Positions 1 to 49,680 of a stretch of DNA of 64,000 nucleotides are shown in pieces. The first letter of the stretch is position 1, and each line of letters starts with the position of its first letter. The notes below the pieces were generated by a model. It saw only the letters and a program-made list of their open reading frames with translations, was not told where the DNA came from and did not search any database. The stretch is from assembly GCA_031291995.1 (NCBI GenBank), contig JARLHZ010000034.1, positions 14,915 through 78,914 of the forward strand, given 5' to 3'. This DNA comes from Candidatus Doudnabacteria bacterium (GTDB lineage: Bacteria; Patescibacteriota; Doudnabacteria; UBA920). The position numbers and the translations under genes were made by a program.

Positions 1-66
1 AGGATTAGTCCTTGAGTTCAAACTTGATTCGCAAGTTCGTAAAAATTCGTAATTCGTAAAATCTAT

Positions 67-3248: not shown

Positions 3249-3337
3249 TTTACGAAGTACGAACAAGTACGAACTTACGAAAGTTTGTACTTAAGGTTCG
3301 TATGTTCGTAAAATTTCGTACTTCGTAAAATACATTT
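3249..3337 (+). repeat. Family B palindromic element (TTTACGAAGTACGAAC…GTTCGTACTTCGTAAA), copy before rplO
   Basis: About 85 bp imperfect palindrome built from TTACGAA/TTCGTAA units. Ends 9 nt before the rplO ATG. Contains TTGTAC-18-TAAAAT promoter-like hexamers. Confidence 0.85.
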
Positions 3338-3772: not shown

Positions 3773-3859
3773 TTTACGAAGTACGAACAGGTACGAACTT
3801 ACGAAGGTTTGTACTTAAGGTTCGTAAGTTCGTAAAATTTCGTACTTCGTAAAAAATAT
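3773..3859 (+). repeat. Family B palindromic element, copy before secY
   Basis: Near-identical to the 3249-3337 copy. Confidence 0.85.
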
Positions 3860-5185: not shown

Positions 5186-5262
5186 AGCTATTATCCGTGT
5201 CATTGCGAGTGCGTCCGAAGCAATCCATATTCTGATAAGATTGCTTCGTCGTCAGCCAAAGC
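5186..5262. repeat. MITE-like solo TIR pair of the GIY-YIG-element hairpin family
   Basis: GTCATTGCGAGTGCGTCCGAAGCAATC…AAGATTGCTTCGTCGTCAGCC forms a long imperfect hairpin with no ORF between the arms. Lies downstream of secY. Confidence 0.6.
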
Positions 5263-5342
5263 CCCGAATCCCAGCAATGACAGCAATAATTTACCAATTC
5301 CCAAAAACCTGCCATAATATTGGCAGGTTTTAAAATGACTTT

Positions 5343-9410: not shown

Positions 9411-9454
9411 GATCATATAGTAAATAACATATAGGCGCGAATGCGCTCGGCCGG

Positions 9455-9650
9455 GATGACAATAATTCAGTAACAGTTCACAAGCCTGAGTGAGGCCGAA
9501 AATCCTGCTGATTTTCCCAGCTGCGGGGCTCTTCGTTCATTCGCCTTTGGCGAATATCACAACGCCTCCCAATCCTCGCTGCGGAAAATCGCTAGCATTT
9601 CCGTCCTCCCGGGTTTGTCCAACTCGAGTTTGTGAACTGTTACAAAAATT
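9455..9650 (+). ncRNA. candidate structured RNA / structured 3' region closed by a 14 bp long-range stem
   Basis: GTAACAGTTCACAA (9459-9472) pairs with TTGTGAACTGTTAC (9635-9648). Several internal hairpins (GAAAATC/GATTTTC, ATTCGCC/GGCGAAT). The size and closing stem are compatible with a 6S-like fold, but not diagnostic. Confidence 0.2.
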
Positions 9651-16738: not shown

Positions 16739-16952
16739 AATAGGGTTTTTCGCTTGACCCTTTTGCCGGATAAATACCGGATCCCGGATATTTTTTGCGG
16801 CTCTCAATTTGCATCAGCACAAAAAATTCCGGGATGACGTTTAAAATAGCTCTTGTTCTAAATGTCAAACAGCAAAATATAAGTAAAAACGGCCCGGATT
16901 TACGAATTTTGGGTTTTTTATGTTATAATTAGTTTAATTAACCTAAGAAAAT

Positions 16953-22142: not shown

Positions 22143-22227
22143 AGATGGAATTTACGAAGTACGAACAGGTACGAACTTACGAAGTTTGTCCGTTCGTAAG
22201 TTCGTAAACATCCATACTTCGTAAACT
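22143..22227 (+). repeat. Family B palindromic element, copy between rpiB and rpe
   Basis: ATTTACGAAGTACGAACAGGTACGAACTTACGAAG…CGTTCGTAAGTTCGTAAAC…ACTTCGTAAAC. Confidence 0.8.
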
Positions 22228-22907: not shown

Positions 22908-23744
22908 ATGAAAAAACTATCGGGTAAGGATTTAAAACTCAAAGCCAACGATATTAGGCGGGACATAATCAAAATGCTTGTGGAAGCCAAAAGCGGACAC
23001 AGCGCCGGTCCTTTGGATATGGCGGATATTTTTGCCGCGCTTTACTTTAATGTTATGAATGTTCATCCTGAAGATCCAAAGTGGGAAGGCAGAGATTACC
23101 CGGTGTTGTCGTGCGGCCATATTTGCCCGGTACTTTACGCCGCCATGGGAGAGGCGGGTTACTTTCCGAAGGAAGAATTGTTGACTTTAAGAAAATTCGG
23201 CACGCGCCTGCACGGACATCCGCATAACCTGGCATTGCCCGGCATTGAAACTTCATCAGGTCCTCTTGCCCAGGGCAGCAGCCAGGCCGTGGGAATTGCC
23301 CTTGGTTTAAAAATGGATAAAAAACCCAATTATGTATATCTGGTTGTTTCGGACGGCGAACAGCAGGAGGGCCAAACGTGGGAAGCGGTTATGATGGCCG
23401 GAAAAAACCATCTGGATAATTTAATCGCGGTTATGGACAGAAACCGCATCCAAATAGACGGCAACACCGAAGACATTATGCCGCTGGACGACGTTAAGGC
23501 CAAGTACGAAAGTTTTAACTGGCATGTAATTGAAATTGACGGAAATAATATGGACGCGGTATTAAAGGCCTACGAAACCGCTAAGACAGTTAAGGGCAAG
23601 CCGATAATGATAATCGCGAATACTTTGGCCGGCAAAGGCGTAAGCTTTATGGAAGGCGACTACAAATGGCACGGCATGCCACCGAACAAGGAGCAGGGAG
23701 AGAAGGCGTTGGGAGAGCTCGTGGCGGAAAGGGAAAAAATTTAG
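22908..23744 (+). CDS. tktA: transketolase, N-terminal (TPP-binding) subunit
   Basis: 278 aa. SCGHICPVLYA and the GDG…E TPP-binding region. Split-type transketolase. Confidence 0.9.
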   Translation: MKKLSGKDLKLKANDIRRDIIKMLVEAKSGHSAGPLDMADIFAALYFNVMNVHPEDPKWEGRDYPVLSCGHICPVLYAAMGEAGYFPKEELLTLRKFGTRLHGHPHNLALPGIETSSGPLAQGSSQAVGIALGLKMDKKPNYVYLVVSDGEQQEGQTWEAVMMAGKNHLDNLIAVMDRNRIQIDGNTEDIMPLDDVKAKYESFNWHVIEIDGNNMDAVLKAYETAKTVKGKPIMIIANTLAGKGVSFMEGDYKWHGMPPNKEQGEKALGELVAEREKI

Positions 23745-23745
23745 T

Positions 23746-23822
23746 GTCATTGCGAGTGCATCCGAAGCAATCTTTTTATAAATAGACTGCTTCGTCGGCT
23801 GCACTCATCGTAACGACATGAC
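23746..23822. repeat. MITE-like solo TIR pair of the GIY-YIG-element hairpin family (between tktA and tktB)
   Basis: GTCATTGCGAGTGCATCCGAAGCAATC, 13 nt, then GACTGCTTCGTCGGCTGCACTCATCGTAACGAC. The arms are imperfect reverse complements. Confidence 0.6.
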
Positions 23823-23842
23823 CTCTATCACAAATAAAATTT

Positions 23843-24817
23843 ATGATCAAACTTAATCCAAAAATCGGACAAAGCGATATTGAGCAGGAACCTACGCGTA
23901 AGGGCTATGGTCTGGGCGTGGTTGATTTAGGGGACGCCGATAAAAATGTTGTCGTACTGACCGCGGATTTGGCCGAATCGACTATGGTGCATGAATTCCA
24001 GAAAAAATTTCCGGAACGGTTTGTGGAATGCGGCGTGGCCGAGCAGAATATGATGGGCGCGGCCGCGGGCTTGGCACTTTACGGTAAAACCGCGTTTGTC
24101 TCGTCGTACGCCGTATTTTCTCCCGGACGCAGCTGGGACCAGATGCGGGTTTCGGTTTGTTACAGCGAGGCTAACGTTAAAGTGGCGGGCGCGCATACGG
24201 GGGTTACAGTTGGTCCAGATGGCGCAACCCATCAAGCGTTGGAAGATGTGGCGATAATGCGCGTGCTGCCGAATTTGGTCGTGGAAGTTCCGTGTGACTC
24301 CATTGAAGCACGTAAAACCGTCGTGGCGCTCGGAAAAATGAAAGGCCCGGCATATTTTAGATTGGGGCGCTCTAAAACCGCGGTTATAACAACATCGGAG
24401 ACTCCTTTTGCGGTGGGCAAGGCGGAAATTTTCCGCGACGGATCCGACGTGGCGATTATTGCCAGCGGTCCGGTTTTATATAATGGCTTGTTGGCCGCAA
24501 TAGAATTGGAAAAAGAAGGCATATCGGTTATGGTGGTTAATAATCATACTATTAAACCAATTGATAGCGCGACAATCATCGAGGCGGCTAAAAAGTGCGG
24601 CGCAGTGGTAACTTTGGAAGAACACCAAACCCAAGCCGGTTGCGGCAGCGCGGTTTGCGAAGTTTTAGCCATGAATTATCCGGTCCCCGTAGAAATGGTC
24701 GGCATGCCCAACACCTTTGGCGAGTCCGGCGAGCCGGAGCAGCTGATACAAAAATACGGAATGGGGAAGGATCATATTATGGAAGCAGTTAAAAAAGTTC
24801 TTCAGCGGAAGAAGTGA
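23843..24817 (+). CDS. tktB: transketolase, C-terminal (pyrimidine-binding) subunit
   Basis: 324 aa. Transketolase C-terminal half, adjacent to the N-terminal subunit. Confidence 0.9.
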   Translation: MIKLNPKIGQSDIEQEPTRKGYGLGVVDLGDADKNVVVLTADLAESTMVHEFQKKFPERFVECGVAEQNMMGAAAGLALYGKTAFVSSYAVFSPGRSWDQMRVSVCYSEANVKVAGAHTGVTVGPDGATHQALEDVAIMRVLPNLVVEVPCDSIEARKTVVALGKMKGPAYFRLGRSKTAVITTSETPFAVGKAEIFRDGSDVAIIASGPVLYNGLLAAIELEKEGISVMVVNNHTIKPIDSATIIEAAKKCGAVVTLEEHQTQAGCGSAVCEVLAMNYPVPVEMVGMPNTFGESGEPEQLIQKYGMGKDHIMEAVKKVLQRKK

Positions 24818-24828
24818 AACCTCTTTAT

Positions 24829-25209
24829 GTCATTCCGAGGGAGTGCATCCGACCGAGGAATCCCTTAGTATATGAAAGAGTATCAATATTTCGTATATAT
24901 AATGGCCAGTAATAGCGGCACGTTATATACTGGCATAACAAGTGATTTGTATAAAAGGGTTTATCAGCATAAAAATAACCTAATTGAAGGTTTTACAAAA
25001 AAATACCAATGTCATAAACTTGTCTATTTTGAGGAAACTACCGAGGCGGAATCGGCGATTGCAAGAGAAAAGCAAATTAAAGGTTGGAGCAGGTGGAAGA
25101 AGGAAGATTTGATAAGGTCAAAAAATTTTTACTGGGAAGACCTATCCAAAAGCTGGGAATAATAAACTAAGGGATCCCTCGGCCGTATTCCCAGGCCTCG
25201 GGATGACAC
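24829..25209. mobile_element. about 380 bp element: GIY-YIG (COG2827) gene flanked by about 36 bp imperfect terminal inverted repeats
   Basis: Left GTCATTCCGAGGGAGTGCATCCGACCGAGGAATCCC (24829-24866) and right GGGATCCCTCGGCCGTATTCCCAGGCCTCGGGATGAC (25172-25209) are reverse complements of one another with a few mismatches. Confidence 0.6.
24872..25162 (+). CDS. small stand-alone GIY-YIG nuclease-domain protein (COG2827/YhbQ-like)
   Basis: 96 aa. YFVYIMAS…GTLYTGITSDLYKRVYQH GIY…YIG motif. Confidence 0.8.
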   Translation: MKEYQYFVYIMASNSGTLYTGITSDLYKRVYQHKNNLIEGFTKKYQCHKLVYFEETTEAESAIAREKQIKGWSRWKKEDLIRSKNFYWEDLSKSWE

Positions 25210-25535
25210 ATGGCATAAAAATGAAAATTTTTAGCTTAAAGTCAAGAACTGGTTTGGTGGCATGGAGTATAATATTAGGATTTATCATTAATGTTATAGT
25301 AAGTGCTTTAGCTTACGCATTTGGTTACGTTGAAAGAACCCCGGCATTTTGTTTAACTTGTATATCACCTCAAACGGTGAGTTATTTTTATGGATTTCCA
25401 TTTCAGGTTTGGTTGGATCGATTTTCAAGTCCGGGCATTTGGGAATATTATTTTTTCTTTAACTTGCTTTTTTGGATTTTTGTCATTTTAGTCATTTTAA
25501 GTTTGATCAGATATTTTAAGCATAAGAAAGTGTAG
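25203..25535 (+). CDS. hypothetical small membrane protein
   Basis: 110 aa with 2-3 hydrophobic helices. No homology recognised. Confidence 0.35.
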   Translation: MTHGIKMKIFSLKSRTGLVAWSIILGFIINVIVSALAYAFGYVERTPAFCLTCISPQTVSYFYGFPFQVWLDRFSSPGIWEYYFFFNLLFWIFVILVILSLIRYFKHKKV

Positions 25536-25600
25536 TTAGCCCATTTATGGGCTGCTGTGATAGGAACAGCCGATAAATCGGCTAACTACAAAAAACAAAA

Positions 25601-26614
25601 ATGTTTGACATAATCAGCATCGGCGATCCGACAATAGACACGTTTTTGATTGTTAAGGACGTGGAAATAAAGGAAATTAACGGGCAAAAAAAAGCTCTGA
25701 TTAATTGGGGCGACAAATTGCCTGTTGATCAGTTTTATCGTACCGTCGCGGGCAACGCGGCTAATAACGCCGTGGGTAGCGCCCGCTTGGGCCTGGTAAC
25801 GGGATTCTATTGTGTCGTGGCCCACGACACCGGCGGACGCGAAATCGTCCACAAAATGGAAAAAGAAGGCGTGTCGGCTCGCTACATCATCAAAAACGAC
25901 AAACATCCGACCAATGCCTCCACGGTTCTGTCGCATGACGGCGAGCGCACGATTTTTGTCTATCATGAGCACCGGCATTATAAACTTCCCGAGTTCGCCC
26001 ATTCCAAATGGGTCTATTTAACTAGTATGGGGGTGGGGTTTGAAAAAATTTATAAAGATTTGGCCCGCTACCTCGACCGATATAAGGTAAAATTGGGTTT
26101 TAACCCGGGCACGTTCCAATTGCGGGCCGGCCCTAAAGCCAATGCGGAAATGTTAAAACGGACGGATTTGTTGTCGGTAAATGTCGAGGAGGCTCAGAGC
26201 TGGGTGGGGGAACACGGGCGTGACCCGGAATTGCTTTGCAAACATCTGATGAAGCTGGGTGTCAAAGCTGTGGCACTTACCGACGGCCGCAAAGGCGCGT
26301 ATAGTTATTCCAATGACGGCTTTTACTATATAGAAGAATATCCCGGTCCAAGGATTGAGGCTACGGGGGCCGGGGATTCCTTTACCACGGCCTATATTGC
26401 CGCTTTGGCGCACGGCCTTTCGCATAAAGACGCGTTGCGCTGGGGACCGATGAACGCGGGCTCGGTTGTCCAGCAAGTCGGCCCGCAGGCCGGTCTTTTG
26501 ACCAAAAAAGAAATGGAAGGCCAGTTAAAAAAATTGAAACAGTTCCAGGTGGTGGAAATCACGGAAGAAAATAATGAAAAATTAAAGGAAATGGTCAGTA
26601 AGAAAAAGGATTAA
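25601..26614 (+). CDS. PfkB-family carbohydrate kinase (ribokinase-like)
   Basis: 337 aa. C-terminal GAGDSFTTAYIAALAHG PfkB signature. Confidence 0.82.
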   Translation: MFDIISIGDPTIDTFLIVKDVEIKEINGQKKALINWGDKLPVDQFYRTVAGNAANNAVGSARLGLVTGFYCVVAHDTGGREIVHKMEKEGVSARYIIKNDKHPTNASTVLSHDGERTIFVYHEHRHYKLPEFAHSKWVYLTSMGVGFEKIYKDLARYLDRYKVKLGFNPGTFQLRAGPKANAEMLKRTDLLSVNVEEAQSWVGEHGRDPELLCKHLMKLGVKAVALTDGRKGAYSYSNDGFYYIEEYPGPRIEATGAGDSFTTAYIAALAHGLSHKDALRWGPMNAGSVVQQVGPQAGLLTKKEMEGQLKKLKQFQVVEITEENNEKLKEMVSKKKD

Positions 26615-26711
26615 ATTTATAAAATTGGTGTAATTAAGGAACTAAGATTCCTGCCTTCGCAGGAATGACACAAGTGTACTAATCCTAGAGGCGGGTATCT
26701 CCTAGTGAGTC

Positions 26712-27064
26712 ATTCCTGGCAGTAGCATCCGAGACCAGGAATCTTGAATCCCATGAAGAATTATTTTGTTTATATATTGGCAAGTAAAAAAGATGGAGTA
26801 TTGTATATTGGAGTTACAGGTGATTTAATAAGAAGAGTATGGGAACATAAAAATAACATAATAGAGGGTTTTACCAAGAAGTATTTTGTGCACCGGTTAG
26901 TATATTTTGAATCAACGACAGATGTTGAAAGTGCAATAAACAGGGAGACGCAATTAAAAAGATGGAAGCGCGATTGGAAAATTAAACTTTTTGAAAAAGA
27001 TAATCCCAATTGGGAAGATTTATATCCAAAAATAATTTAAGATTCCTGCCTTCGCAGGAATTAC
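26712..27064. mobile_element. second GIY-YIG element bounded by the same hairpin-repeat family
   Basis: Left GTCATTCCTGGCAGTAGCATCCGAGACCAGGAATCT (26712-26747). Right AGATTCCTGCCTTCGCAGGAATTAC (27040-27064). Extra partner copies lie at 26645-26673, 27076-27115 and 27161-27187. Confidence 0.55.
26744..27040 (+). CDS. small stand-alone GIY-YIG nuclease-domain protein (COG2827-like), paralogue of 24872-25162
   Basis: 98 aa. YFVYILAS…GVLYIGVTGDLIRRVWEH, colinear with the first copy. Confidence 0.8.
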   Translation: MNPMKNYFVYILASKKDGVLYIGVTGDLIRRVWEHKNNIIEGFTKKYFVHRLVYFESTTDVESAINRETQLKRWKRDWKIKLFEKDNPNWEDLYPKII

Positions 27065-27075
27065 GCACTTAGAAT

Positions 27076-27187
27076 ATGTCATTCCTGGCGAGTGCAGCCG
27101 AGACCAGGAATCTTACAACCAAACTGGTATTAAAATTTATAACTTTTATCATAAATAATTTAAGATTCCTGCCTTCGCAGGAACGAC
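27076..27187. repeat. gene-less TIR pair (Y arm 27076-27115, X arm 27161-27187) of the GIY-YIG-element family, directly upstream of gap
   Basis: GTCATTCCTGGCGAGTGCAGCCGAGACCAGGAATCT, about 45 nt AT-rich spacer, then AGATTCCTGCCTTCGCAGGAACGAC. Same arms as the intact element with the gene missing. Confidence 0.55.
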
Positions 27188-27200
27188 ATAAAGGGAAAAC

Positions 27201-28223
27201 ATGAAGACAATCAAAGTCGGCATAAATGGGTTTGGGAGGATTGGCAGGCAGGCGTTTAAAATCGCCCTGGAGCACGAGGAAGTGGAAGTGGTCGGTATTA
27301 ACGATTTAACTTCTACTGCCGTCCTGGCGCATTTGCTGAAATATGACAGCGTTTACGGGCGTTATCATCATAAAATTGAATTTGACGAGACAAACATAAT
27401 CGTCGAAGGTAAAAAATATCCGGTATCCGCGGAAAAAGATCCGGCGGCATTGCCGTGGGGCAAGCTCGGCGCGGAAGTGATTATTGAATGTACCGGCCGA
27501 TTTACCGACAGCGAAAAAGCCGGCGCGCACTTAAAAGCCGGCGCGAAAAAAGTGGTTATTAGCGCTCCGGCTAAAGACGAAGGCATTACGCCCACAATCG
27601 TTTTGGGCGTTAATGAGCAAAAATATACCGGCCAGAACATCATAAGCAACGCTTCCTGCACTACCAACTGTATTGCGCCGGTTTTGGCGGTTATGAATGA
27701 AACCTTTGGCGTAGAAAAAGCGCTAATGTCCACAATCCACAGCTACACCGCCGAGCAGAATTTGGTTGACGGGCCGCCGCCGGGGGGGAAATCCAACGAC
27801 CTTCGCCGGGCGCGCGCCGCGGCTTTAAATATTATTCCGACCACGACCGGCGCGGCCATTTCAGCTACTCAGGCCATTCCGGAGCTAAAAGGCAAGTTTG
27901 ACGGCGTATCGTTCCGCGTGCCTACCCCCGTTGGTTCGTTATCGGATTTCACAATGCTCCTTAAGAGAAATGTGACCAAAGAAGAAATCAACAAGGCCTT
28001 TACCGACGCGGCCGCAACCAAGCGTTTTAAGGGAATTTTGGAAGTAACCAACGAGCCAATAGTATTATCGGACATAGTCGCCAATCCCGCATCTTCGATT
28101 GTCGATTTGGCCTTAACCCAAGTTGTGGACGGAAACTTTGTTAAAGTCGTCGCCTGGTATGATAATGAGTTTGGCTACAGTCATAGGTTGGTGGAAGAAG
28201 TAATAATGGTCGGTAAATCATAA
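27201..28223 (+). CDS. gap: glyceraldehyde-3-phosphate dehydrogenase
   Basis: 340 aa. INGFGRIGR Rossmann motif and active-site SCTTNCIAP. Confidence 0.95.
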   Translation: MKTIKVGINGFGRIGRQAFKIALEHEEVEVVGINDLTSTAVLAHLLKYDSVYGRYHHKIEFDETNIIVEGKKYPVSAEKDPAALPWGKLGAEVIIECTGRFTDSEKAGAHLKAGAKKVVISAPAKDEGITPTIVLGVNEQKYTGQNIISNASCTTNCIAPVLAVMNETFGVEKALMSTIHSYTAEQNLVDGPPPGGKSNDLRRARAAALNIIPTTTGAAISATQAIPELKGKFDGVSFRVPTPVGSLSDFTMLLKRNVTKEEINKAFTDAAATKRFKGILEVTNEPIVLSDIVANPASSIVDLALTQVVDGNFVKVVAWYDNEFGYSHRLVEEVIMVGKS

Positions 28224-43902: not shown

Positions 43903-43978
43903 AGTTTACGAAGTACGAAATTTTACGAACTTACGAAAGTTCGTACGTTCGTATCGGTTCGTACTTTGTAAAATATAG
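43903..43978 (+). repeat. Family B palindromic element, copy between the histidine kinase and response-regulator genes
   Basis: GTTTACGAAGTACGAAATTTTACGAACTTACGAAAGTTCGTACGTTCGTATCGGTTCGTACTTTGTAAAA. Confidence 0.8.
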
Positions 43979-49585: not shown

Positions 49586-49680
49586 TTTACTAACTACGAA
49601 TCCGTACTAATATACGAATTGAGAACTAAAATTAGTATATTCGTAAAGATTCGTAGTTAGTAAAGGTAGTAAAGGTAGAT
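49586..49680. repeat. Family B-like long palindrome between convergent genes (bidirectional terminator candidate)
   Basis: CCTTTACTAACTACGAATC…GATTCGTAGTTAGTAAAGG, an 18 bp perfect outer stem around ACGAAT/ATTCGT inner repeats. Confidence 0.75.

What the first reader, a model, noticed from the sequence alone, without database searches (positions are those of the whole stretch)
26644..27190. GIY-YIG gene number 2 in a nested array of the same hairpin repeats, including a gene-less (MITE-like) TIR pair
Repeat arm X (AGATTCCTGCCTTCGCAGGAAtgac) and arm Y (GTCATTCCTGGC[AG]AGTGCAGCCGAGACCAGGAATCT) alternate as X(26645)-Y(26712)-[GIY-YIG 26744-27040]-X(27040)-Y(27076)-spacer-X(27161). The last X arm ends 14 nt before the gap ATG. 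Y…X bracket the nuclease gene exactly as in element 1. The downstream Y…X pair brackets only about 45 nt of AT-rich filler, a deletion derivative. Similar gene-less pairs sit at 5186-5262 (after secY) and 23746-23822 (between tktA and tktB). This is the pattern expected of an active or recently active family with autonomous and non-autonomous members.
Basis: seen in the sequence. Interest (0 to 1): 0.7.

Follow-up and report, generated by a model that had tools for sequence, protein, structure and literature searches.

The report
Ssn ssDNA nuclease genes with hairpin repeats
The two small GIY-YIG genes and the alternating hairpin repeats around them belong to the Ssn/SRM system published in 2025 (a nuclease that cuts single-stranded DNA next to its own hairpin repeat), seen here in a candidate-phyla bacterium, so the pattern is real but already known, and whether it moves like a transposon remains open.

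Summary
Coordinates are right to within 2-3 nt for the main array, and chance would give none of these hairpins.

It is a known system. Chenal et al. 2025 (Nat Commun 16:2388, PMC11893778) described Ssn, a family of about 94-aa single-domain GIY-YIG nucleases. Ssn binds an oriented hairpin repeat (NTS, or SRM more generally) only as ssDNA and cuts just upstream of it. Its genes typically sit in an SRM-ssn-SRM arrangement.

- Both window proteins are 52-53% identical to Neisseria SsnA without gaps (E 2e-35 and 1e-29). The catalytic Tyr, Tyr and Glu are kept.
- Arm X is the Neisseria NTS with one compensated stem pair. Arm Y is a long-loop variant.
- Of 77 homologous loci from many phyla, 75 carry such an oriented hairpin next to the gene, and 57 carry one on both sides.

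The host is a Candidatus Doudnabacteria (CPR) genome.

Comparison with syntenic relatives shows gain or loss. The pfkB-gap spacer is empty in 14 loci from relatives (two pairs of them duplicate contigs). It holds a simple X-ssn-X cassette in one relative and the elaborated array here. The gene-less pair after secY is absent from relatives whose SecY is 94-96% identical. The gene-less pair Y2..X3 keeps the last 13 nt of the ssn ORF, which points to a deletion derivative.

"Recently active" is not supported, and transposition is not shown. Verdict: new member of a known kind.

The parts
26645..26669 (-). X1: short-loop SRM hairpin in reverse orientation. Read on the - strand it is tGTCATTCCTGCGAAGGCAGGAATCtta. 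It lies 30 nt after the pfkB stop codon.
   Evidence: DNA fold -7.7 kcal/mol, z -4.5. Differs from the published NTS consensus mainly by one compensated stem pair.
26709..26744 (+). Y1: long-loop SRM in forward orientation (GTCATTCCTGG-CAGTAGCATCCGAGA-CCAGGAATCT). It ends 8 nt before the ATG of ssn copy 2.
   Evidence: (D5).
26753..27040 (+). ssn copy 2 (GIY#2): 95-aa single-domain GIY-YIG nuclease. An alternative TTG start lies at 26744.
   Evidence: Pfam PF01541, E 1.6e-13. 52% identical to Neisseria SsnA without gaps, E 2e-35, with Y7, Y18 and E65 conserved. 2257 homologues found.
27040..27064 (-). X2: reverse SRM directly after the ssn stop codon. Its outer end is mutated: it reads GTAAT instead of GTCAT in SRM sense.
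   Evidence: (D2). The published mutagenesis says the three nt before the palindrome matter most for cutting.
27078..27113 (+). Y2: forward long-loop SRM, the left end of the gene-less pair.
   Evidence: (D5, 86% identical to Y1).
27114..27162 (.). AT-rich spacer of the gene-less pair. Its last 13 nt (CATAAATAATTTA) match the 3' end of the ssn ORF (CAAAAATAATTTA).
   Evidence: D2 (34 nt, 97%). The pair is absent from the simpler orthologous cassette in L114.
27163..27187 (-). X3: reverse SRM, the right end of the gene-less pair (GTCGT instead of GTCAT). It ends 13 nt before the gap ATG.
24829..24864 (+). Forward SRM of element 1 (GTCATTCCGAGG-GAGTGCATCCGA-CCGAGGAATCCC). Only 5 bp of stem.
24872..25162 (+). 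ssn copy 1 (GIY#1): 96-aa single-domain GIY-YIG nuclease.
   Evidence: Pfam E 5.8e-16. 53% identical to Neisseria SsnA, E 1e-29. 57% aa identity to copy 2.
25171..25207 (-). Reverse SRM of element 1. Read on the - strand: GTCATCCCGAGG-CCTGGGAATACGG-CCGAGGGATCCC.
   Evidence: (I2).
23746..23822 (.). Gene-less SRM pair between the two halves of split transketolase: forward 23746-23772, decayed reverse copy 23785-23822.
   Evidence: A pair at the same site occurs in relatives L083, L085, L086, L087 and L112, but not in L099.
5199..5281 (.). Gene-less SRM pair after secY: forward 5199-5225, reverse 5239-5281.
   Evidence: Absent from relatives whose SecY is 94-96% identical (L107, L108, L109, L110).
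16780..16838 (-). Lone long-loop SRM (GTCATCCCGGA...TCCGGGATCC).
   Evidence: A similar copy lies elsewhere in relative L109.

Best explanation
The region holds two copies of an Ssn-type nuclease gene, each bracketed by its own Ssn-related motif (SRM) hairpins. Further SRMs without a gene are also present.

**Taken from the published family (inferred here).** Each 95-96-aa GIY-YIG protein binds the hairpin that an SRM forms when the DNA is single-stranded. It does so in one orientation only, the strand reading GTCAT-stem-loop-stem-AATC. It then hydrolyses that strand a few nucleotides 5' of the motif. It does not touch duplex DNA or RNA.

**What this means for a cassette.** With a forward SRM upstream and a reverse SRM downstream, the predicted cut sites lie just outside both ends of the cassette, one on each strand.

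**Shown here.**
- The family assignment.
- The fixed geometry of gene and hairpins.
- The two SRMs of one cassette resemble each other more than SRMs of other loci do.
- Cassettes and gene-less pairs come and go at orthologous intergenic sites in related Doudnabacteria.

**Inferred.**
- The cassette is, or was, a selfish unit that spreads together with its recognition sites. The likely route is nuclease-triggered recombination or repair of single-stranded intermediates, not transposase chemistry.
- Gene-less pairs arise by internal deletion or by dispersal of SRMs.
- The resident copies have been kept for a long time under purifying selection. This would fit a host-level role such as restricting or trimming incoming ssDNA during DNA uptake, as shown for Neisseria.
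For: **Published system.** PMC11893778 defines the protein, the motif, the biochemistry and the SRM-ssn-SRM architecture.

**Protein.**
- Pfam GIY-YIG hits.
- 52-53% ungapped identity to the 94-aa Neisseria SsnA ORF, with Y6, Y17 and E64 aligned.

**Motif.**
- X in SRM sense is TGTCATTCCTGCGAAGGCAGGAATCTTA. The NTS consensus is CGTCATTCCCGCGMAVGCGGGAATCYRG.
- The GTC before the palindrome and the C after it are the positions the paper found critical. Both are present in X1, Y1 and Y2.

**Association.** 75 of 77 homologous loci have an oriented hairpin, against 2.7% of control segments. 42 of 77 match the published SRM pattern, against 0.3% of controls. 5 carry the exact NTS consensus.

**The two ends co-vary.** Median identity between the upstream SRM and the reverse complement of the downstream SRM is 0.85 within a locus and 0.71 between loci (p 9e-11).

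**Unit boundaries.** Two copies in one MAG are 80% identical in the gene but 100% identical in both SRMs. Homology begins at the outer edge of the upstream SRM; downstream the L008 contig ends at the SRM, so that edge could not be checked.

**Gain and loss.**
- pfkB-gap spacer: empty in 14 loci from relatives (two pairs are duplicate contigs), a simple cassette in L114, the array here.
- secY pair: absent from close relatives.
- One relative (L087) has ssn between gap and pgk instead.

**Long residence.** GIY is 83.2% and PfkB 83.4% identical in protein between the window and L114.
Against: - No biochemistry exists for these proteins. ssDNA specificity is extrapolated from four tested homologues.
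- The published degenerate SRM search pattern finds nothing in the window. It does not allow the T:A pair in the stem or loops longer than about 8 nt.
- The SRMs of element 1 have only 5-bp stems and fold no better than shuffled sequence.
- X2 and X3 carry changes in the cleavage-critical GTCAT (GTAAT and GTCGT).
- CDD family cd10448 could not be checked.
- The biological role in a CPR bacterium is unknown.
- The route by which cassettes or pairs spread is not shown. No clean filled-versus-empty junction and no target-site duplication was found.
Confidence: 0.85

Rival explanations
1. One reading: an active or recently active transposon family. SRM-ssn-SRM would be the autonomous element, with the GIY-YIG protein as its transposase. 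Gene-less SRM pairs would be non-autonomous MITEs moved in trans.
For: - TIR-like geometry, and the two ends of a cassette co-vary.
- The homologous unit is bounded by the SRMs.
- Presence and absence at orthologous sites.
- The gene-less pair keeps the 3' end of the ORF (D2).
- The published Discussion raises the IS-like hypothesis.
- 65-87% protein identity across distant phyla.
Against: - GIY-YIG enzymes hydrolyse DNA and form no covalent intermediate. No strand-transfer activity is known for them (established knowledge of the superfamily).
- No consistent target-site duplication is visible at the element ends (read from the sequences).
- The two window copies are old paralogues, 62% identical in DNA.
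- The cassette co-diverged with pfkB.
- No empty-site variant appears among contigs of the same strain.
- X2 and X3 have mutated outer ends.
Confidence: 0.15
2. The hairpins are ordinary transcription terminators or mRNA-stabilising stem-loops, and their position next to GIY-YIG genes is coincidental.
For: All copies are intergenic. X is a stable 8-bp GC-containing hairpin. REP-like elements in other bacteria can have such side effects.
Against: - No T-tract follows any copy, and none is called by the terminator scan.
- Copies occur in both orientations, including directly upstream of start codons.
- The non-palindromic flanks GTCAT and AATC are conserved, which a terminator does not need.
- The association with the gene holds in 75 of 77 loci across phyla.
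Confidence: 0.03
3. The genes are free-standing GIY-YIG homing endonucleases of the I-TevI kind. They would cut duplex DNA at an allelic empty site and be copied in by double-strand-break repair.
For: Weak partial hits to homing-endonuclease profiles: PHROG 314 at E 9e-4, TIGR01453 at 16.7 bits. Patchy distribution.
Against: - The protein is only 95 aa and has no DNA-binding domain. TIGR01453 scores far below its cut-off of 56 bits.
- The closest characterised relative, SsnA at 52% identity, does not cut duplex DNA.
- The context is neither an intron nor a phage.
Confidence: 0.04
4. The repeats act as RNA, as a small RNA or a cis-regulatory structure. Rfam's FtrB would be the precedent.
For: All three X copies give sub-threshold FtrB hits (24-27 bits). 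The FtrB consensus itself contains an SRM-like hairpin.
Against: - The scores are far below the gathering threshold of 66.
- The match is confined to the hairpin.
- Copies lie in both orientations relative to transcription.
- SsnA does not bind RNA.
Confidence: 0.03

Closest known systems
Ssn nuclease family with NTS/SRM repeats (SsnA of Neisseria meningitidis, NMB0047; Chenal et al. 2025, Nat Commun 16:2388)
   Same: - Single-domain GIY-YIG protein of 94-96 aa, 52-53% identical, with the same catalytic Tyr, Tyr and Glu.
- An oriented hairpin repeat with a GTCAT 5' flank and an AATC 3' flank.
- Forward copy upstream and reverse copy downstream of the gene.
- Extra copies in alternating orientation nearby. 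The N. gonorrhoeae locus L103 shows the same kind of array.
   Different: - The host is a CPR bacterium (Ca. Doudnabacteria). CPR is not mentioned in the paper's main text.
- Two divergent paralogues lie 1.6 kb apart, each with its own SRM variant.
- The stems read CCTGC, CCTGG or CCGAGG instead of CCCGCG, so the published search pattern misses them.
- Many copies carry a 12-15-nt loop with a lineage-specific GAGTGCATCCGA motif.
- Activity is untested.
Neisseria dRS3 repeats and NIME arrays (Neisseria intergenic mosaic elements)
   Same: Intergenic arrays of a 20-nt palindromic repeat in alternating orientation that bracket short variable units. dRS3 is the palindromic core of the NTS.
   Different: The literal dRS3 pattern ATTCCC-N8-GGGAAT is not met, since the window has ATTCCTGC-N4-GCAGGAAT. 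There are few copies here, about 12 in 64 kb. No link to phage integration is seen.
REP/BIME repeats with RAYT (REP-associated tyrosine transposases; IS200/IS605 relatives)
   Same: A small nuclease gene flanked by inverted copies of the hairpin repeat that it recognises as ssDNA. Repeat doublets without a gene are scattered in intergenic regions. A domesticated-versus-selfish question applies to both. The analogy is drawn in the paper's Discussion.
   Different: The enzyme is a hydrolytic GIY-YIG nuclease, not an HUH/Y1 transposase that forms a covalent 5'-phosphotyrosine link. The predicted cuts at the two ends fall on opposite strands, not on the same strand.
MITEs and their autonomous IS partners
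   Same: Terminal inverted repeats. Short gene-less derivatives that keep the element ends. Presence/absence polymorphism between relatives.
   Different: There is no DDE or other transposase. No consistent target-site duplication is visible at the element ends. The ends are individually palindromic hairpins recognised as ssDNA.

Membership tests
Ssn nuclease family (cd10448; Chenal et al. 2025) | Single-domain GIY-YIG protein of about 94 aa with no extra DNA-binding domain | tested here: met
   ORFs of 95 and 96 aa. PF01541 covers residues 5-80 of each. No other domain hit in Pfam or NCBIfam.
Ssn nuclease family (cd10448; Chenal et al. 2025) | Sequence homology to Neisseria SsnA (the paper's criterion is E < 1e-10) | tested here: met
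   tblastn hit to the N. gonorrhoeae chromosome at E 7e-25. BLASTP to the 94-aa ORF L103:589-873 gives 52% identity at E 2e-35 and 53% at E 1e-29. That ORF fits the paper's length and its Y6, Y17 and E64 numbering.
Ssn nuclease family (cd10448; Chenal et al. 2025) | Catalytic residues shown by mutagenesis (Y6, Y17, E64 in SsnA) are conserved | tested here: met
   They align with Y7, Y18 and E65 of copy 2 and with Y9, Y19 and E66 of copy 1. They are also invariant in the 25-sequence alignment A1.
Ssn nuclease family (cd10448; Chenal et al. 2025) | Gene flanked by oriented SRM hairpins: forward 5', reverse 3' | tested here: met
   Y1/X2 around copy 2 and 24829/25207 around copy 1. The same geometry holds in 57 of 77 homologous loci.
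Ssn nuclease family (cd10448; Chenal et al. 2025) | Repeats match the published SRM search pattern HGTCWYN(0-2)YYVSBRHN(0-5)WNVSBRGN(0-2)RNCYNB | tested here: not met
   0 hits in the window, against 0.15 expected in shuffles. The pattern forbids the T at the third stem position (CCTGC) and forbids long loops. It does hit next to 42 of 77 homologues of the window protein, against 0.3% of controls. The pattern is therefore narrower than the family.
Ssn nuclease family (cd10448; Chenal et al. 2025) | Binds and cuts its SRM only as ssDNA, in one orientation, a few nt upstream of the motif | not testable with these tools
   Needs purified protein and labelled oligonucleotides.
Ssn nuclease family (cd10448; Chenal et al. 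2025) | Assignment to CDD model cd10448 (GIY-YIG_unchar_3) | not testable with these tools
   No CDD search is available. The only PDB relative by sequence is 1zg2, a UPF0213 protein, at E 5e-4.
REP/RAYT (IS200/IS605-related) | HUH/Y1 tyrosine transposase encoded between the repeats | tested here: not met
   The encoded protein is GIY-YIG. The similarity is one of logic only.
IS/MITE-type transposon | Target-site duplication flanking the terminal inverted repeats | tested here: inconclusive
   The flanks of the four units differ...TTTAT|...|ACATGG...AGTGA|...|GCACTT...AATAT|...|ATAAAG...TCCGT|...|AGCAAT. Only Y2..X3 could be read as a TA duplication, which is uninformative in AT-rich DNA.
GIY-YIG homing endonucleases (I-TevI type) | N-terminal GIY-YIG domain plus a C-terminal DNA-binding domain; intron-borne or free-standing in phage | tested here: not met
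   TIGR01453 scores 16.7 bits against a cut-off of 56, and only over residues 5-35. The protein ends after the nuclease domain.
Intrinsic (rho-independent) terminators | GC-rich hairpin followed by a T-run | tested here: not met
   The scan of 23600-27400 finds one site, at 25365, and none at any X or Y.
Rfam RF02748 FtrB | Score at or above the gathering threshold of 66 bits | tested here: not met
   24-27 bits. The match is limited to the SRM-like hairpin inside the model.

The most novel reading that the evidence does not exclude
SRM-ssn-SRM cassettes and gene-less SRM pairs would be the autonomous and non-autonomous members of a mobile-element class not yet demonstrated. Its spread would be driven by a hydrolytic GIY-YIG nuclease directed at ssDNA hairpins. 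Cutting single-stranded intermediates just outside each hairpin end, followed by host recombination or repair, would copy the unit. That chemistry differs from both DDE and HUH transposases. The Doudnabacteria locus series (empty site, simple cassette, elaborated array with a deletion derivative) would then be a natural record of that process.
Probability: 0.3. Interest if true: 0.7.

Novelty: new member of a known kind. Interest (0 to 1): 0.3.

Why it matters
The system was published in 2025, so the finding does not open a new category. It still adds three useful points.

- Ssn/SRM extends into CPR/Patescibacteria. These bacteria have tiny genomes and depend on DNA uptake, so an ssDNA-specific nuclease could matter for handling incoming DNA.
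- The published SRM search pattern is too narrow. It misses stems with a T:A pair and long-loop variants, so published counts of SRMs are probably underestimates.
- The series of orthologous sites (empty, simple cassette, array with a deletion derivative) is comparative evidence for the still-untested idea that these cassettes are or were mobile. The two paralogues with distinct SRM variants also form a ready-made pair for testing nuclease-hairpin specificity, which is what biotechnological use of Ssn enzymes needs.

Tried and rejected
- **Published SRM pattern on the window.** 0 hits. A relaxed-loop version was too unspecific: 5 hits against 3.2 expected.
- **My own structural detector** (GTC + at least 7-bp stem + C). 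It recovers X1, Y1, Y2 and the 16780-16838 copy. It misses mutated or short-stem copies and gives several false hits, so the window copies were curated by eye. Possible half-remnants at 9453-9460 (- strand) and 50107 (+ strand) were left unassigned.
- **Rfam.** Only a tRNA passes the gathering thresholds. FtrB is sub-threshold.
- **PADLOC and PHROGs.** Only marginal partial hits, so no defence-system assignment.
- **Search for strain-level empty sites.** Every contig that carries the exact PfkB, GAPDH or GIY#2 protein is 100% identical to the window and breaks at 25156, 27059 or 27154, that is, at the repeats. No polymorphism was found.
- **Search for a clean filled-versus-empty junction in the plasmid collection.**
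  - Planktothrix: the flanks are rearranged.
  - Sinorhizobium: an indel of roughly 0.8 kb in a repeat-rich spacer, but not a clean insertion.
  - Rhizobium CIAT894: the spacer is not conserved in related plasmids.
- **Similarity between the spacer before X1 and the spacer before X3** (D3, 70%). Outside X this is about 58% in AT-rich DNA, so it was not used.
- **Supplementary tables of the Ssn paper.** Not held as text. Whether CPR genomes appear there is unknown.
- **Later literature.** No later paper on Ssn mobility was found.
Full report
**1. What is in the sequence**

The region between pfkB (25601-26614) and gap (27201-28223) holds the following, in order:
- a reverse hairpin X1 (26645-26669);
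- a forward long-loop hairpin Y1 (26709-26744);
- a 95-aa GIY-YIG ORF (26753-27040; Pfam PF01541, E 1.6e-13);
- a reverse hairpin X2 (27040-27064), which overlaps the stop codon;
- a forward Y2 (27078-27113);
- a 49-nt AT-rich spacer;
- a reverse X3 (27163-27187), which ends 13 nt before the gap ATG.

The core pattern ATTCCTG-N(2-30)-CAGGAAT occurs four times, against 0.00 expected.

A second 96-aa GIY-YIG ORF (24872-25162; Pfam E 5.8e-16) lies 1.6 kb upstream. A forward copy (24829-24864) and a reverse copy (25171-25207) of a related repeat bracket it. Gene-less forward/reverse pairs lie at 5199-5281 and 23746-23822. A lone long-loop copy lies at 16780-16838.

Read in one sense, all copies share GTCAT(T/C)(C/G)C-stem-loop-stem-G(G/C)(A/G)ATC. 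None has a T-tract, and none is called as a terminator. As ssDNA the X hairpins are stable (z about -4.4), the Y hairpins less so, and the element-1 copies are weak.

**2. What it is**

A literature search for GIY-YIG together with the Neisseria repeat dRS3 returned Chenal et al. 2025 (PMC11893778). That paper makes the following points:
- The dRS3 palindrome is the core of a 28-nt oriented repeat, the NTS: CGTCATTCCCGCGMAVGCGGGAATCYRG.
- NTS-like repeats, called SRMs, flank homologues of one gene, ssnA (NMB0047), across bacterial phyla.
- SsnA is a 94-aa single-domain GIY-YIG protein of CDD family cd10448.
- It binds the NTS only as single-stranded DNA and only in one orientation. It cuts a few nucleotides upstream of the motif.
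- It touches neither duplex DNA nor RNA.
- Y6, Y17 and E64 are needed for cutting.
- The loop can be changed or even replaced.
- In meningococci the enzyme lowers transformation by NTS-containing DNA.

**3. Membership tests**

*Protein.* tblastn of window copy 2 against the plasmid collection hit two N. gonorrhoeae chromosomes that are filed there as plasmids (E 7e-25). The ORF at that place (L103:589-873) is 94 aa. It carries Y6, Y17 and E64 exactly as numbered in the paper. It is surrounded by canonical NTS copies in alternating orientation. The window proteins align to it without gaps at 52% identity (E 2e-35) and 53% (E 1e-29), with the three catalytic residues matched.

*Motif.* X in SRM sense, TGTCATTCCTGCGAAGGCAGGAATCTTA, differs from the NTS consensus mainly by one compensated stem pair (C:G to T:A). 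Y has the same flanks and an 8-bp stem with a 15-nt loop. The published degenerate search pattern nevertheless gives no hit in the window, because it excludes that T and excludes long loops. So this formal criterion is not met.

*Link to the published family.* I fetched 80 loci that encode homologues of the window protein (55-70% identity). They come from Planctomycetota, Patescibacteria, Alpha-, Beta-, Gamma- and Deltaproteobacteria, Chloroflexota, Cyanobacteriota, Omnitrophota and others. Results for the 77 usable loci:

| Test | Loci with a hit | Controls |
|---|---|---|
| Published SRM pattern next to the gene | 42 of 77 | 0.3% |
| Exact NTS consensus | 5 of 77 | 0 of 601 segments |
| Generic oriented hairpin (GTCRY + stem + C), forward upstream | 64 of 77 | 2.7% per 200-nt segment |
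| Generic oriented hairpin, reverse downstream | 68 of 77 | as above |
| Generic oriented hairpin, both sides | 57 of 77 | as above |
| Generic oriented hairpin, at least one side | 75 of 77 | as above |

Long-loop variants make up 18% of these flanking hairpins. The window genes are therefore Ssn family members and the repeats are SRMs. The published pattern is narrower than the family.

**4. Host and context**

SecY of the window is identical to a protein that NCBI names from a Candidatus Doudnabacteria MAG. The paper's main text does not mention CPR or Patescibacteria.

**5. Is it a mobile element?**

*Evidence for movement over evolutionary time*
- Within the 57 loci that have both hairpins, the two ends of a cassette resemble each other more than ends from different loci do (median identity 0.85 versus 0.71, p 9e-11).
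- Two copies in one MAG (L008 and L024) are 80% identical in the gene but 100% identical in both SRMs. Homology begins at the outer edge of the upstream SRM; downstream the L008 contig ends at the SRM.
- In 18 metagenomic loci from relatives (PfkB 68-85% identical) the order rpe-tktN-tktC-(small membrane ORF)-pfkB-gap-pgk is kept. All 12 that contain both pfkB and gap lack any ssn gene or SRM between them. One (L087) has ssn between gap and pgk instead.
- Two further loci, L112 and L113, from a relative whose SecY is 94% and PfkB 84% identical, are also empty at that site.
- Relative L114 has a simple cassette at exactly this site: forward X, ssn, reverse X, lying 10 nt after pfkB and 17 nt before gap.
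- Relative to L114, the window has an extra X1, has a Y in place of the forward X, and has the Y2..X3 pair inserted between the flank of X2 and the gap leader.
- The 13 nt before X3 repeat the last 13 nt of the ssn ORF before X2, with one mismatch. My estimate is that chance gives this at about 1e-4 (D2). This fits a cassette that lost its interior.
- The secY pair is missing from relatives whose SecY is 94-96% identical, although they keep the neighbouring landmark hairpin.
- A gene-less pair sits between tktN and tktC in five relatives, with different stem sequences. It is absent from a sixth.

*Evidence against current activity*
- The two window genes are 57% identical in protein and 62% in DNA.
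- The L114 and window cassettes have diverged exactly as much as pfkB (83.2% versus 83.4% aa). The cassette has therefore been inherited vertically under purifying selection since those lineages split.
- No consistent target-site duplication is visible at the element ends.
- X2 and X3 carry changes in the GTCAT positions that the paper found critical for cutting.
- All public contigs of this strain are identical and merely break at the repeats.
- Attempts to find a clean filled-versus-empty junction in plasmid records gave only messy indels in repeat-rich spacers.

**6. Mechanism proposed**

*Taken from the published family.* The nuclease binds the extruded SRM hairpin on the strand that reads GTCAT... 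and cuts that strand just 5' of it.

*Follows from the geometry seen here.* The two predicted cut sites lie immediately outside the cassette, on opposite strands.

*Inferred.* Cutting of single-stranded intermediates (replication, uptake or conjugation), followed by host recombination between SRM copies, could duplicate, delete or convert units. This would explain the pairs, the arrays, and SRMs that stay more uniform than the gene. A GIY-YIG enzyme cannot itself join DNA, so any mobility must borrow host repair. The long vertical retention suggests that the host also benefits, for example by trimming incoming ssDNA as in Neisseria. None of this is tested for CPR bacteria.

**7. Comparison and novelty**

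The closest known system is Ssn/SRM itself, and membership is met on every sequence-level criterion except the published regular expression. The system works like REP/RAYT in logic: a nuclease gene sits between the ssDNA hairpins that it recognises, with orphan doublets elsewhere. It is not a member of that family, because the enzyme fold and chemistry differ. It resembles MITE/IS pairs in anatomy only.

The finding is a new member of a known kind. The open and interesting part is mobility, which the 2025 paper raised only as a hypothesis and which no later paper in the searchable library addresses.

**8. Scores**

Interest is 0.3. The added value is the CPR host, the variant hairpins that escape the published pattern, and comparative evidence for gain, loss and a deletion derivative.

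Noticed in passing
window 36-58, 3251-3327, 3775-3851, 22153-22223, 43907-43963, 49640-49655: A second, unrelated intergenic repeat family: palindromic clusters of TACGAA units, about 75 nt each. The pattern gives 25 hits against 0.33 expected. Related 'cgaat' and 'cggat' unit repeats fill the pfkB-gap spacer of relatives (L083, L085, L112) where this window has the ssn array.
   Followed up: partly
window 26612-26686, 26977-27082, 27132-27210 (- strand): All three X copies give sub-threshold hits to Rfam RF02748 FtrB (Francisella sRNA B). The FtrB consensus itself contains GuCauuCcCGCGuAGGCGgGaauC, which is an NTS/SRM hairpin. That Rfam family seems to include an Ssn-type DNA repeat.
   Followed up: partly
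L086 4170-4680: A relative carries a different small GIY-YIG gene (38% identical to copy 1) between tktC and the membrane ORF. It is flanked by direct copies of a different hairpin (…aatagtgttcgaccttgtggagaacctatt…) and not by SRMs. This may be another nuclease-repeat pairing.
   Followed up: no
L104 (Planktothrix agardhii plasmid NZ_LR882964, 17347-20613): An ssn homologue surrounded by many 'tgtcattctgag…gaagaatc' SRM pairs sits between an MmeI-type restriction-modification gene and DISARM drmA, that is, inside a defence island.
   Followed up: no
L103 (N. gonorrhoeae NZ_CP119142, 1881119-1882588): PLSDB files 2.17-Mb gonococcal chromosomes as plasmids. The SsnA ORF there has no in-frame ATG. 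It gives the published 94 aa and the Y6, Y17, E64 numbering only if it starts at ATT.
   Followed up: partly
L008 4340-4777 and L024 2765-3260: Two ssn copies in one MAG are about 80% identical in the coding part but 100% identical in both flanking SRMs. The hairpins are thus held more uniform than the gene, by concerted evolution or by selection for recognition.
   Followed up: partly
window 23746-23822 and relatives L083, L085, L086, L087, L112: The spacer between the two halves of split transketolase carries a gene-less SRM pair in six related genomes. The stem sequences differ (ATTGC, ATTCTGAAC, ATTCCGAGG), and many loops share the motif GAGTGCATCCGA. The site is either a hot spot or an old insertion that tracks each genome's SRM variant.
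   Followed up: partly
window 25531-25590: A near-perfect hairpin with 24-nt arms (92% complementary, 12-nt loop) lies between the small membrane ORF and pfkB. It is unrelated to the SRMs (I4).
   Followed up: no
L105 / L106 (Sinorhizobium sp. C101 versus S. meliloti Ak57): At an orthologous spacer, one genome has an insert of roughly 0.8 kb made of RIME-like repeats plus an ssn homologue. The other has a single short repeat. Here the gene is flanked by direct, not inverted, copies of a longer mosaic repeat that is present hundreds of times in rhizobial replicons.
   Followed up: partly
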